Positions 4,921 through 19,722 of a stretch of 64,000 bases of DNA are shown piece by piece. Every line of letters begins with the position of its first letter. Within the stretch, counting starts at the first letter, position 1. Below the pieces are notes generated by a model that saw only the letters and a program-made list of their open reading frames with translations, was not told where the DNA came from and did not search any database. A program made the translations under genes and the position numbers. Source of the stretch: a virus; the IMG/VR virus record IMGVR_UViG_3300050343_000218. One strand, given 5' to 3'.

Positions 4921-5090
4921 ATCCTTTCTGTGCTTTTTTTACGAAGTTGTTTTTCTTTTAATTGTTGTTTAGCAACTCCAAGTTGCTTTCTCATATACAT
5001 TATTTCTTCATCAGTATAGAGATGAGGTTTAACGTCAGCTAATTTAATTGCTGCCTTCGCCAAACGAATTTGATCCTTCAGTCTTGTCAT
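4911..5090 (-). CDS. Small basic hypothetical protein
   Basis: MTRLKDQIRLAKAA...LYTDEEIMYM; start reassigned to ATG at 5090. Confidence 0.55.
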   Translation of the reverse strand: MTRLKDQIRLAKAAIKLADVKPHLYTDEEIMYMRKQLGVAKQQLKEKQLRKKSTERIWV

Positions 5091-5289
5091 TGTAGTAAGC
5101 GTTGTAGTAAGAGACGATTCCGCTAGAAATCCTATGTCCTTGGGAAACCCAATCGTGGCAACACTCATAAATTGATTGCGCATTTTGAGGGATTGTAACA
5201 CTACCATATTTGCTCAGCAAAATTAGTAGACATTCTTCTCTCAGTTTTAGTTTCTCTTCGGAGTAACGCCAGTCGTTATCCATTTTCAT
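5044..5289 (-). CDS. Conserved cyanophage hypothetical protein
   Basis: MDNDWRYSEEKLKLREECL...IYECCHDWVSQG. Confidence 0.6.
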   Translation of the reverse strand: MKMDNDWRYSEEKLKLREECLLILLSKYGSVTIPQNAQSIYECCHDWVSQGHRISSGIVSYYNAYYNDKTEGSNSFGEGSN

Positions 5290-5461
5290 CCTCGTTTAAA
5301 GTGTCAAGAACATCCTCATATTGAACTTGAAGATAACTAGGGCTACCATTCTCAGGCAGGCTATAACGTTCGGGATCAGAATAAATTTCAGACTCCAGTG
5401 CACTGACCAGTGACTTAAGATTCTTCAGGATTAGCTTGAGACGTTCCCTGTTAGGTTCCAT
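5276..5461 (-). CDS. Conserved cyanophage hypothetical protein
   Basis: RERLKLILKNLKSLVSALESEIYSD. Confidence 0.6.
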   Translation of the reverse strand: MEPNRERLKLILKNLKSLVSALESEIYSDPERYSLPENGSPSYLQVQYEDVLDTLNEDENG

Positions 5462-5492: not shown

Positions 5493-5518
5493 AAAAAAAG
5501 AGGGGTTGCAACCCCTCT
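5493..5518 (-). terminator. Rho-independent terminator
   Basis: Perfect inverted repeat GAGGGGTTGCAACCCCTC followed by T7 on minus strand. Confidence 0.85.
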
Positions 5519-5541
5519 CAATGTAAGTATTGTCCAAGCAA

Positions 5542-5712
5542 TTACTTGGTGTACGTTTTACCACGATAGCAGAAAGTCCCGTGAGACTCTTTGCTTTCTA
5601 CACAACGGGTATCATACTTAACACCACGATATGAGGTGTGGGTAATCTGTGCGTTGTGAAGTGCAGATGCTTTGTTGATCTGCTTCTTGATCAAGTTGAG
5701 TGAATTCAACAT
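5542..5712 (-). CDS. DUF4278-like 'downstream peptide', 56 aa
   Basis: Hand-translated MLNSLNLIKKQINKASALHNAQITHTSYRGVKYDTRCVESKESHGTFCYRGKTYTK; two YRG motifs; SD CAGGAG. Not in ORF track (<60 aa). Confidence 0.75.
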   Translation of the reverse strand: MLNSLNLIKKQINKASALHNAQITHTSYRGVKYDTRCVESKESHGTFCYRGKTYTK

Positions 5713-5747
5713 TTGGTTACTCCTGAAAGTAGAGGGTTTTTAATCCC

Positions 5748-5977
5748 CGTTCCTTCAGTCGTGTGCGTCCCAATACCATTGGCATTCTGGCGATGAGTCC
5801 TTAAGGGTCTCAACCAACTCAACCTTAAGCTGATTGTTAAGGTTGGTATTGTTCTCAATCTTCAGCATAATAGCATCAGTTTGAGTACAAGTGAGTGTTG
5901 TGTAGAATAGTACTTCTAGCATTAGGATGAACGGCTCCGTTCCGCGACTTACTTGCGTCCCCCTAGGGGGATGAACG
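5748..5977 (-). ncRNA. Glutamine-riboswitch-like RNA (glnA / Downstream-peptide class), split around an ORF
   Basis: CGUUCA-P2-CGCAAGUA-AGUCG ... CGACU-GAAG-GAACG plus a second CGUUCA/GGAACG pair; begins a few nt after the -10 of a sigma70 promoter and precedes a DUF4278-like gene. Confidence 0.75.
5755..5922 (-). CDS. 55-aa peptide embedded in the riboswitch-like RNA
   Basis: Hand-translated MLEVLFYTTLTCTQTDAIMLKIENNTNLNNQLKVELVETLKDSSPECQWYWDAHD. Confidence 0.65.
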   Translation of the reverse strand: MLEVLFYTTLTCTQTDAIMLKIENNTNLNNQLKVELVETLKDSSPECQWYWDAHD

Positions 5978-5984
5978 TACAGAC

Positions 5985-6014
5985 ATTATACTATGTCCTA
6001 TATTATTTAGTCAA
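5985..6014 (-). promoter_or_regulatory. Host-type sigma70 promoter
   Basis: TTGACT-18 nt-TATAAT; also contains late-like CTAAATA. Confidence 0.75.
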
Positions 6015-6037: not shown

Positions 6038-6475
6038 TTACTTTCTATTGCCCCACTGGACGTTAGGAAACGCATCCCTGACTACGTTCTCGGTGATTCT
6101 GTATTTTGTTTTAAGTTTTTTATCCTTTGCCAAGCAGACAACCTCAGCTTCAGACTCGTGTAACCCCTCCAGGAGACCCACAAACATCGACTCCCGCTTG
6201 AGAGCAGGAAGACTATCACCACCACCCTTCACGAAGTAACGGAGGATCCTATGCTCAGTACTGAGGCGTGTGTGCTCTGTACCCTCAGGCACTTCGTTTG
6301 GTTTGTAAGGAACGTTACCCTCAGGAAGATTTGACTCAATACTGGGATCGTAATTGATGATCAAGATCTTGCGAAGAGCTTCGCTGTTATTCTGTTTTAG
6401 AAGTTTAACCTTTTGTTCCTTGGTCTTAGCATTGCTCACTTTTTGGAGCACTTCAGATACTAATAGTTCAGCCAT
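6038..6475 (-). CDS. Conserved T4-like hypothetical protein
   Basis: LVSEVLQKVSNAKTK...LPEGNVPY...RESMFVGLLEGLHESEAEVV. Confidence 0.75.
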   Translation of the reverse strand: MAELLVSEVLQKVSNAKTKEQKVKLLKQNNSEALRKILIINYDPSIESNLPEGNVPYKPNEVPEGTEHTRLSTEHRILRYFVKGGGDSLPALKRESMFVGLLEGLHESEAEVVCLAKDKKLKTKYRITENVVRDAFPNVQWGNRK

Positions 6476-10696: not shown

Positions 10697-10795
10697 AAAA
10701 AAGTAAGACCATCAGGGAATGGTGGAGTTACTATTCCTCTACGCCCTAGGCAGAGGTATTAAAGACGTGTTTAGACACCCTATAGGTCTTGGTTT
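10697..10795 (-). ncRNA. PhotoRC-II-like structured psbA leader
   Basis: AAGACC...GGGUGUCUAAACACGUCUUUAAUACC...GAAUAGUAA...CCAUUCCCUGAUGGUCUUACUUUU resembles, from recall, the motif found upstream of cyanophage psbA. Confidence 0.65.
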
Positions 10796-10802
10796 GAGGA
10801 GT

Positions 10803-10820
10803 GTTACGAACCGTTAAGAA
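10803..10820. promoter_or_regulatory. HLR1-like direct repeat (possible RpaB site)
   Basis: GTTACGAA-CC-GTTAAGAA in psbA 5' region. Confidence 0.45.
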
Positions 10821-19649: not shown

Positions 19650-19722
19650 CAGGTCAGGTAGGACTCGAACCTACAATCGGCAACTTAGAAGGTTGATGCA
19701 TTATCCATTATGCTACTGACCC
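19650..19722 (-). tRNA. trnR: tRNA-Arg(UCU)
   Basis: GGGTCAG/CTGACCT acceptor stem, anticodon loop CTTCTAA, GGTTCGAGTCC T-arm; CCA not encoded. Confidence 0.95.

What the first reader, a model, noticed from the sequence alone, without database searches (positions are those of the whole stretch)
5755..5922. 55-aa ORF whose start and end are parts of the aptamer
The AUG lies in the 5' strand of the 11-bp helix. The last codons (W-Y-W-D-A-H-D-stop = UGG UAU UGG GAC GCA CAC GAC UGA) encode its 3' strand, the CGCA junction and half of P3. Translating ribosomes must melt the aptamer, and aptamer folding hides the start codon, so this ORF could act as a leader coupling translation to ligand sensing for the next gene.
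Basis: partly seen in the sequence, partly recalled or inferred. Interest (0 to 1): 0.7.

Follow-up and report, generated by a model that had tools for sequence, protein, structure and literature searches.

The report
Protein gene nested inside glutamine riboswitch
In this ocean cyanophage a real 55-codon protein gene sits inside one hairpin of a glutamine-sensing RNA switch, so its first and last codons are also parts of the sensor; hundreds of related phages share this layout and I found no paper describing it.

Summary
On the minus strand, a sigma70-like promoter (6014-5985) starts an RNA that begins with a glutamine-riboswitch leader (5977-5748). The leader precedes a DUF4278/IF17-like peptide gene (5712-5542) and a terminator.

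The 55-codon ORF (5922-5755, phrog_504) is looped out of an 11-bp helix of that leader. Its AUG lies in the 5' strand. Its last seven codons and UGA spell the 3' strand, the CGCA junction, the P3 3' strand and the start of the GAAG junction.

The ORF is a real gene:
- dN/dS is about 0.25 and third codon positions vary freely.
- Two Cys are invariant or nearly so.
- 341 cluster representatives match its profile.
- GGAG lies upstream in 90/98 ORF-bearing units and 0/11 ORF-less units.
- Synonymous sites of the last five codons are frozen.

Some homologues are free-standing, a few directly after the DUF4278 gene. The ORF is therefore a protein gene lodged in the sensor, not just a leader.

Covariation favours two interlocked sensor cores sharing helix P3 over two aptamers in a row. 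The ORF's stop codon also lies in a covarying helix that masks the next gene's ribosome site. Coupling between ORF translation and sensing is therefore geometrically forced, but its direction is inferred.

This scan has noted the same layout in many other cyanophage genomes.

The parts
5985..6014 (-). Sigma70-like promoter: TTGACT (6014-6009), 18-nt spacer, TATAAT (5990-5985). The predicted start near A5978 is one base before the riboswitch.
   Evidence: 11 of 12 consensus matches; sequence. The start site is inferred, not mapped.
5973..5977 (-). Outer P1, 5' strand CGUUC. It pairs with GAACG at 5752-5748.
   Evidence: Sequence. It is the closing helix in the folds of ORF-less relatives and invariant in 28 ORF-less units.
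5958..5971 (-). Outer P2 hairpin UCCCCC-UA-GGGGGA. It is short here. In 26 of 100 unique related units this hairpin holds a second ORF.
   Evidence: All 5 pairs covary.
5950..5957 (-). J2/3 CGCAAGUA, with the CGC of the ligand-site strand and the AGUA side of the loop-E motif.
   Evidence: Matches the RF01739 consensus GaCGGAAGUA with one change.
5945..5949 (-). P3 5' strand AGUCG. It pairs with CGACU at 5761-5757.
   Evidence: Fold. P3 covaries across sequence classes. Rfam aligns these bases as P3 in ORF-less orthologues.
5929..5942 (-). Inner hairpin P1': GAACG (5942-5938), loop GAGC, CGUUC (5933-5929). GGAG at 5938-5935 is the likely Shine-Dalgarno of the nested ORF, 12 nt before its AUG.
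   Evidence: Folds. The double change CAACG+CGUUG occurs in 10 unique variants with no single changes. GGAG is present in 90/98 ORF-bearing and 0/11 ORF-less units, Fisher p 2e-10.
5917..5927 (-). P2' 5' strand UCCUAAUGCUA, containing the ORF start codon (5922-5920).
   Evidence: The basal 4 pairs are 100% paired with C-G/U-A/U.G exchange.
5755..5922 (-). Nested protein gene: 55 codons plus UGA, phrog_504. Predicted to be a small three-helix protein with two conserved Cys.
5768..5778 (-). P2' 3' strand UGGUAUUGGGA, which is codons W-Y-W and the GA of the first Asp codon.
5762..5767 (-). Inner junction CGCACA, inside codons D-A-H.
   Evidence: Sequence. It is CGCA[A/C]A in all sampled units (pattern-anchored) and in 78/80 protein-anchored loci.
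5757..5761 (-). P3 3' strand CGACU. Its last base is the U of the UGA stop codon (5757-5755).
5748..5756 (-). J3/1 GAAG (5756-5753, the loop-E side) and outer P1 3' strand GAACG (5752-5748). G5747 follows.
   Evidence: Exact match to the RF01739 consensus GAAGGAACG.
5720..5729 (-). CUUUCAG (5729-5723) pairs with CUGAAGG (5758-5752). It overlaps the Shine-Dalgarno AGGAG (5724-5720) of the DUF4278 gene.
   Evidence: This helix is in the minimum-energy fold with the platform. UGA/UAA covaries with CUU[C/U]AG and no C.A pairs occur.
5542..5712 (-). The regulated gene: a 56-aa YRG-repeat peptide (DUF4278/IF17-like, phrog_545).
   Evidence: A peptide of this kind (38-61 aa) follows nearly all of the 190 units read.
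5496..5519 (-). Intrinsic terminator that ends the two-gene unit.
   Evidence: 9-bp stem, T run.

Best explanation
The stretch is a small, self-contained cyanophage operon. Its leader is a type-I glutamine riboswitch, and a real protein gene has been lodged in the loop of one of the leader's peripheral hairpins.

The leader most likely folds as two interlocked cores:
- An outer core made of P1, P2, the loop-E junction and P3.
- An inner, permuted copy at the far end of P3, made of hairpin P1' and helix P2'.

The 55-codon gene is looped out of P2'. As a result:
- Its ribosome site (GGAG) is the P1' loop.
- Its AUG is in the P2' 5' strand.
- Its last seven codons and stop are P2' 3' strand, junction, P3 3' strand and loop-E.

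The tail W-D-A-N/H-D is dictated by the RNA. The rest of the protein is a small helical, two-cysteine protein of unknown function, selected as a protein.

The same nucleotides cannot be in a ribosome and in the sensor fold at once, so translation of the nested gene and sensing exclude each other on one mRNA.

The ORF's stop codon also lies in the strand (CUGAAGG) that, without ligand, pairs with CUUUCAG and half-masks the Shine-Dalgarno of the IF17-like gene. I infer two routes to opening that site:
- Glutamine binding to the outer core (an ON switch, as in gifB).
- A ribosome finishing the nested gene (translational coupling).

The nested gene itself would be initiated mainly before its 3' helix strand is transcribed.

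Shown: the anatomy, the coding status, the dual constraint and the covarying helices. Inferred: ligand binding, the ON direction and the coupling.
For: Real gene:
- Matches phrog_504 over its full length, E 1.3e-24.
- In 115 unique sequences, second-position entropy is far below third-position entropy. C13, E37 and C50 of the family alignment are invariant and P48 nearly so, all with variable third bases.
- NG86 dN/dS has a median of 0.25.
- ORF lengths differ by whole codons.
- 341 representatives at E<=1e-3.
- GGAG is upstream in 90/98 ORF-bearing and 0/11 ORF-less units, p 2e-10.

Dual coding:
- 78/80 protein-selected loci keep every base of the last five codons.
- Other tails (WDANAD, WDAKAD, WDANG) track other P3 sequences.

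Riboswitch identity:
- ORF-less orthologues reach RF01739's gathering score: 41.1 and 39.0 bits as an outer aptamer with a 41-42-nt insert in P3, and 35.9 bits in L333 read as a second tandem aptamer.
- A DUF4278-type peptide follows nearly all of the 190 units read. This is the usual partner gene (PMC6212724).

Interlocked fold:
- It is the minimum-energy fold of most ORF-less units.
- On 28 units it is 97.2% paired, with covariation 0.306 against 0.095 in shuffles (0/500).
- P3 changes on both sides at 3 pairs.
- The P1' double change has no single intermediates.

Window fold: z -3.1, with P3, P1' and an 11-bp P2'.

Masking helix:
- It is in the minimum-energy fold.
- UAA goes with CUUUAG in 56/57 units. 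UGA goes with CUUCAG or CUUUAG. No C.A pair occurs.

Gene partnership: in L333 and L334 the homologue follows the DUF4278 gene with an ATGA overlap, behind an ORF-less riboswitch.

Generality: 26 of 100 unique units also hold a second ORF (phrog_6471) in the outer P2. Its stop codon type covaries with the bases before its AUG.
Against: - No experiment shows glutamine binding, translation of the ORF, or coupling.
- In the window itself Rfam reaches only 28.6 bits (gathering score 35), and only for a partial reading. My own model could not span the ORF.
- The sequence also fits two aptamers in a row. Rfam prefers that reading in two orthologues.
- Outer P1 and P1' never vary in the ORF-less set.
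- P3 carries A.C mismatches in many variants.
- Family-wide, only 4-5 bp close the ORF loop. Closure over about 150 nt may be weak, and AUG burial is lineage-specific.
- The stop codon is 42 nt from the next AUG, which is far for re-initiation.
- 31 of 33 ORF-less loci show no homologue nearby, so the protein is dispensable for the riboswitch and peptide.
- In the nearest-neighbour model the ligand-competent fold is about 6 kcal/mol less stable than the masked fold.
Confidence: 0.65

Rival explanations
1. The nested gene is a passenger. The variable hairpin loop is simply a tolerated landing site, perhaps reached by recombination between the conserved aptamer sequences. The gene is translated from its own GGAG, and the riboswitch works only on mRNAs that are not being translated there. 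No regulatory coupling has been selected.
For: - P2 and P2' are variable-length hairpins that accept anything from 4-nt loops to 200-nt inserts.
- Several unrelated-looking ORF subfamilies occupy the same site.
- Homologues work outside riboswitches.
- Many phages keep the riboswitch without the gene.
Against: - The arrangement is the majority state: 98 of 111 sampled units.
- The reading frame always ends at the first stop inside the switching strand or the helix.
- In the other gene order the two genes overlap by ATGA, which is itself translational coupling. This suggests co-production is selected.
Confidence: 0.22
2. The leader is two independent glutamine aptamers in a row (a pseudo-cooperative doublet, as described for glutamine riboswitches). 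The ORF sits in P2 of the second aptamer. The AGUCG/CGACU complementarity is incidental.
For: - 157 glutamine doublets are reported (PMC9481103).
- Rfam scores the second-tandem reading at 35.9 and 34.5 bits in L333 and L084, and hits the first unit alone in the window.
- Both linker strands have equal length, and in some variants they are direct repeats (AGCCGACU twice).
Against: - The CAACG+CGUUG double change would put a mismatch in both tandem P1 helices but keeps the inner hairpin.
- P3 changes on both sides in three sequence classes.
- The interlocked fold is the minimum-energy fold of most ORF-less units.
- Rfam gives its best scores to the nested reading (41.1 and 39.0 bits).
- The first unit lacks the GAA side of loop E and the second lacks the AGUA side.
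Confidence: 0.3
3. The ORF is a regulatory leader peptide only. The act of translating it matters and its product does not.
For: - Position inside a riboswitch leader.
- Start and stop inside switching helices.
- Precedents are mgtL in the mgtA leader (my own knowledge) and uORFs in B12 riboswitch platforms of M. tuberculosis (Kipkorir 2024, listed as a reference in 10.1101/2024.07.19.603033; not read).
Against: - dN/dS is 0.25, with two conserved Cys and a conserved helix motif.
- A confident three-helix model, pLDDT 78.5.
- Free-standing homologues with unconstrained tails.
Confidence: 0.06
4. The insert is untranslated structured RNA and the open frame is incidental.
For: The insert folds well (z -3.1). 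No direct evidence of translation exists.
Against: - Three-base periodicity of substitutions and purifying selection.
- Frame kept in 98 of 100 long inserts.
- GGAG is present only when the ORF is present.
Confidence: 0.03

Closest known systems
Glutamine-I riboswitch (glnA RNA, Rfam RF01739), e.g. the gifB/IF17 leader of Synechocystis (Klaehn et al. 2018, PMC6212724; Weinberg et al. 2010, PMC2864571)
   Same: - P1 CGUUC/GAACG, a P2 hairpin, the CG(G/C)AAGUA and GAAGGAACG strands with loop E, and P3.
- A DUF4278/IF17-like gene downstream.
- The 3' aptamer strand can pair with the ribosome-site region, as in the proposed ON switch.
   Different: - P3 encloses a second, permuted core.
- A hairpin loop holds a 168-nt protein gene.
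- The aptamer is also coding sequence.
- Phage-borne and widespread (418 phage records), whereas a 2017 survey found only two cyanophage examples (PMC5473149).
Tandem (doublet) glutamine riboswitches (Sherlock et al. 2022, PMC9481103)
   Same: Two sets of the conserved core nucleotides lie on one leader.
   Different: - That review treats doublets as separate riboswitches, each with its own expression platform.
- Here covariation favours one core folded inside the other, sharing P3 and one platform.
- No ORF inside an aptamer is mentioned there.
Protein ORFs looped out of peripheral stems of group I and group II introns (my own knowledge, not tested here)
   Same: A complete protein gene sits in the loop of a peripheral helix of a functional RNA fold. 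ORF ends can overlap core pairings. Translation and RNA folding compete.
   Different: The host RNA is a metabolite sensor on an mRNA leader, not a self-splicing intron. The protein is not a homing endonuclease or maturase.
Leader ORFs inside sensing leaders: mgtL in the Salmonella mgtA leader (my own knowledge); uORFs in B12 riboswitch platforms of M. tuberculosis (Kipkorir 2024, listed as a reference in 10.1101/2024.07.19.603033; I did not read it)
   Same: An ORF inside a ligand-sensing leader whose translation changes which RNA helices can form for the downstream gene.
   Different: - Those ORFs are short regulatory peptides in the expression platform.
- Here the ORF is a conserved protein gene that lies inside the aptamer itself and has free-standing homologues.
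Yfr6 / Downstream-peptide (glutamine-II, RF01704) of marine picocyanobacteria (PMC2864571, PMC6212724)
   Same: A glutamine-sensing leader with a short YRG/DUF4278 peptide gene, first taken for a non-coding RNA.
   Different: There the ORF lies after the aptamer. The window scores below that family's threshold (27.4 against 33 bits).

Membership tests
Glutamine-I riboswitch (RF01739) | P1 helix CGUUC/GAACG followed by G | tested here: met
   5977-5973 pairs with 5752-5748, and G5747 follows. Invariant in relatives.
Glutamine-I riboswitch (RF01739) | P2 hairpin directly after CGUUCA | tested here: met
   5971-5958. All five pairs covary in relatives.
Glutamine-I riboswitch (RF01739) | J2/3 CGGAAGUA and J3/1 GAAG (loop E) flanking P3 | tested here: met
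   CGCAAGUA at 5957-5950 (one change from consensus) and GAAG at 5756-5753. Rfam aligns the same strands in ORF-less orthologues.
Glutamine-I riboswitch (RF01739) | P3 helix | tested here: met
   AGUCG (5949-5945) pairs with CGACU (5761-5757). Three pairs change on both sides, 88.6% paired. It encloses 183 nt instead of a short loop.
Glutamine-I riboswitch (RF01739) | Score at or above Rfam's gathering threshold (35 bits) | tested here: inconclusive
   Window: 28.6 bits, for a partial reading only, because the ORF insert is beyond the model's reach. ORF-less orthologues score 41.1, 39.0 and 35.9 bits.
Glutamine-I riboswitch (RF01739) | Selective binding of L-glutamine | not testable with these tools
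   Needs in-line probing or ITC.
Glutamine-I riboswitch (RF01739) | Association with a DUF4278/IF17-type gene | tested here: met
   A YRG-repeat peptide follows nearly all of the 190 units read. phrog_545 E 1e-33. Pfam DUF4278 23.2 bits, just under its 25.3 cutoff.
Glutamine-II riboswitch (RF01704) | Pseudoknot between CGUUC and a GGAACGG loop closed tightly by helix P2; score >= 33 bits | tested here: not met
   27.4 bits with non-standard pairs. The CUGAAGG/CUUUCAG helix resembles its P2 but encloses a further hairpin.
phrog_504 (cyanophage small protein, function unknown) | Full-length profile match | tested here: met
   E 1.3e-24, residues 1-55 on profile positions 1-53 of 53.
Regulatory leader peptide / uORF | Peptide sequence itself not under protein-level selection; found only in the leader context | tested here: not met
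   dN/dS 0.25 and conserved Cys. Homologues occur outside any riboswitch.

The most novel reading that the evidence does not exclude
The interlocked riboswitch is a two-output toggle. The glutamine-bound fold clamps P1'/P2' shut, which silences the nested protein, and at the same time frees the IF17-like gene's ribosome site. Without glutamine the nested gene is translated, and its terminating ribosome sets the basal level of the second gene. One RNA would then give reciprocal, nitrogen-dependent control of two phage proteins. Both cores would bind glutamine, and hairpin loops of a natural aptamer would serve as exchangeable gene slots. Some relatives fill both slots.
Probability: 0.2. Interest if true: 0.9.

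Novelty: new variant of a known kind. Interest (0 to 1): 0.8.

Why it matters
- Riboswitch aptamers are normally treated as non-coding leader elements. Here dozens of nucleotides serve at once as sensor core and as codons, and whole genes sit inside aptamer hairpins.
- Standard RNA-family scans miss these switches, and gene callers mis-start the ORFs. Phage riboswitches are therefore undercounted: a 2017 survey found two in cyanophages, while 418 phage records match this unit.
- The layout offers a natural system to study competition between ribosomes and ligand-dependent RNA folding.
- It ties two unknown phage microproteins to host nitrogen status and, through the IF17-like peptide, possibly to glutamine synthetase control during infection of globally abundant picocyanobacteria.

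Tried and rejected
- **Rfam at gathering threshold on the window:** no glutamine family hit.
- **My own covariance model from ORF-less units:** it found only the 5' part and misplaced the 3' half, because it cannot span the ORF.
- **Whole-genome search of the window's own genome:** none is held.
- **Scan of bacterial and archaeal genomes for the inner-hairpin pattern:** only chance matches in the 120 rows returned, including three cyanobacterial coding regions.
- **Complex prediction of the nested protein with the DUF4278 peptide:** no verdict, score 0.01.
- **Foldseek against the PDB and the ESM Atlas feature search:** no informative relative.
- **Pfam:** nothing for the ORF.
- **RNA-library contigs:** contigs from two studies cover the ORF and its junction with the DUF4278 gene without mismatch. 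They are contigs, and DNA carry-over is possible, so I do not count them as proof of transcription or of transcript ends.
- **Lipoprotein or signal-peptide reading of the N-terminus:** considered but left open. The main family has only about 11 hydrophobic residues before Cys12 and an acidic residue at position 3. Some longer variants look like true signal peptides.
- **Ames and Breaker 2011:** could not be read.

Full report
**What is there.**

The window is from a T4-like cyanophage. It has a PhotoRC-II element and a tRNA, and its best matches are Synechococcus myoviruses at about 84% identity or less. All features below lie on the minus strand.

- A near-consensus promoter (TTGACT, 18 nt, TATAAT; 6014-5985) would start the RNA about one base before CGUUC at 5977.
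- A glutamine-riboswitch-like leader follows (5977-5748).
- Next come a Shine-Dalgarno AGGAG (5724-5720) and a 56-codon YRG-repeat gene (5712-5542). That gene matches phrog_545 and scores just below the Pfam DUF4278 cutoff.
- An intrinsic terminator ends the unit (5519-5496).
- The 55-codon ORF of the finding (5922-5755) lies wholly inside the leader.

UCCUAAUGCUA (5927-5917) pairs with UGGUAUUGGGA (5778-5768) over 11 positions. The AUG (5922-5920) is in the 5' strand.

The last codons spell, in order:
- the 3' strand
- CGCACA (5767-5762)
- CGACU (5761-5757), which pairs with AGUCG at 5949-5945
- the first bases of GAAG, with the UGA at 5757-5755

The 230-nt RNA folds better than all 200 shuffles (z -3.1), with exactly these helices.

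**The ORF is a real gene.**

- It matches phrog_504 end to end (E 1.3e-24).
- 418 phage records match the region.
- I sampled IMG/VR using only the 3' aptamer half as anchor. Of 111 units, 94 carry an ORF running from an AUG shortly after CGUUCA (10 nt in most) to the UGA/UAA in ACU[G/A]AAGG. Another 4 end at a UAG in the helix 3' strand. Eleven have a short hairpin and no ORF, and 2 have long inserts without an intact frame.
- In 115 unique sequences of the main family, second codon positions are far less variable than third positions. C13, E37 and C50 of the family alignment are invariant and P48 nearly so, and all four have free third bases.
- Median dN/dS is 0.25, and length changes are whole codons.
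- GGAG precedes the AUG in 90 of 98 ORF-bearing units and in none of 11 ORF-less units (p 2e-10).
- A profile of 44 diverse members finds 341 cluster representatives.
- AlphaFold gives a three-helix model (pLDDT 78.5). It has no informative structural or sequence relative.

**Dual coding.**

In 80 loci chosen by protein similarity, 78 keep every base of the last five codons, including all synonymous sites. The two exceptions change the CGCA junction to CGAA.

Other family members end WDANAD, WDAKAD or WDANG. These tails follow different P3 sequences. The C-terminal tail is therefore written by the RNA.

**It is more than a leader.**

Many homologues have unrelated tails.
- In L333 and L334 the homologue sits directly after the DUF4278 gene with an ATGA overlap, behind an ORF-less riboswitch.
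- In L327 and L330 there is no riboswitch nearby.
- Conversely, 31 of 33 ORF-less loci have no homologue in their flanks.

So the protein has a function of its own. It is often co-expressed with the YRG peptide, in either gene order.

**Architecture of the RNA.**

The conserved nucleotides occur twice. Two readings fit: two aptamers in a row, or one core inside the other.

Evidence favouring the interlocked fold:
- It is the minimum-energy structure of most ORF-less units.
- On 28 ORF-less units it is 97.2% paired, with covariation 0.306 against 0.095 in shuffles (0 of 500).
- P3, a helix that exists only in this fold, changes on both sides at three pairs (classes AGUCG/CGACU, GG(A)CGG/CCGCC and GG(A)CAC/GUGCC).
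- Ten unique variants change the inner GAACG...CGUUC to CAACG...CGUUG together, with no single changes. This keeps hairpin P1' but would mismatch both P1 helices of a tandem fold.
- Rfam's glutamine model scores two ORF-less orthologues above threshold as an outer aptamer with a 41-42-nt insert in P3 (41.1 and 39.0 bits).

In two other orthologues, however, Rfam prefers the tandem reading. I rate the interlocked fold at about two in three. Either way the ORF lies in a variable hairpin loop and overlaps core strands.

**Expression platform.**

CUGAAGG (5758-5752) contains the ORF's stop codon. It can pair with CUUUCAG (5729-5723), which overlaps the next gene's Shine-Dalgarno.
- This helix is in the minimum-energy fold once the platform is included.
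- It covaries. UAA goes with CUUUAG in 56 of 57 units. UGA goes with CUUCAG or, by G.U, with CUUUAG. No C.A pair occurs.
- It excludes P3 and the outer P1. This fits the ON-switch model proposed for gifB (PMC6212724).
- The ligand-competent fold is about 6 kcal/mol less stable in the nearest-neighbour model.

**How it probably works (inferred).**

Ribosomes can load on the nested gene while its body is being transcribed, before the P2' 3' strand exists. Afterwards, in this lineage, an 11-bp helix buries the AUG.

A ribosome reading the last codons unpairs P2', P3 and the outer P1. At the stop codon it covers CUGAAGG, which frees the downstream ribosome site. Glutamine binding would free the same site by holding CUGAAGG in the aptamer.

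The direction and size of these effects are untested. Family-wide only 4-5 bp close the loop, so AUG burial is not general.

**Wider pattern.**

In 26 of 100 unique related units the outer P2 hairpin holds a second ORF (65-75 aa, phrog_6471). Its stop codon lies in the helix, and the stop type covaries with the bases before its AUG: UCUUAUG/CAUAAGA, UCUCAUG/CAUGAGA and UCC.AUG/CAUAGGA. Hairpin loops of this riboswitch are therefore recurrent gene slots.

**Literature and earlier notes.**

- Glutamine riboswitches, their doublets and their link to DUF4278 are known (PMC2864571, PMC6212724, PMC9481103).
- A 2017 survey found only two in cyanophages (PMC5473149).
- Cyanophage papers list glnA hits without this anatomy (PMC9964418).
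- My searches found no description of a gene inside the aptamer.
- This scan's own notes record the same layout in many other cyanophage genomes, with similar readings. I reached mine from the tests above.

Noticed in passing
L160 (outer P2 ORF = L160:5094-5291:-), also L102, L108, L145 and others: In 26 of 100 unique related units the first (outer) P2 hairpin also encloses an ORF of 65-75 aa (phrog_6471). The stop codon type (UAA, UGA or UAG) covaries with the bases before the AUG.
   Followed up: partly
L187 (about 5065-5410 in the orientation read): A single aptamer with no twin carries a 325-nt insert in its hairpin. The insert holds a 62-codon ORF plus a second coding-looking segment that ends at a UAG in the helix.
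   Followed up: no
L023, L033, L059, L103, L127, L158, L174, L183, L160, L193: The inner hairpin is changed from GAACG...CGUUC to CAACG...CGUUG, on diverse ORF and peptide backgrounds. Often the loop is UUC and lacks GGAG.
   Followed up: partly
L335, L336, L367 (P3 strands): P3 variants in which both strands read AGCCGACU (or similar) give two symmetric A.C mismatches. In L337, CC is replaced by UU, which repairs one of them.
   Followed up: partly
P0002, P0009, P0011, P0044 and other 78-82-aa database entries; L081 CDS 719-997: Gene callers often extend the nested ORF about 27 codons upstream through the riboswitch. In S-SM2 the peptide gene is annotated from a start inside the nested ORF. 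Several database proteins are frameshifted read-throughs of the aptamer (tails like GTQTTEGTG) or adapter chimeras.
   Followed up: partly
window 10723-10816 (-) and 19650-19722 (-): A PhotoRC-II RNA (65.6 bits) and a tRNA (64.9 bits) are the only Rfam hits at gathering score in the window.
   Followed up: no
window 6038-6475 (-) and 5276-5461 (-): The unit is flanked by a DUF6433 gene (E 1.7e-50) upstream and a phrog_878 small gene downstream. The same neighbours recur in related loci (for example L338).
   Followed up: no
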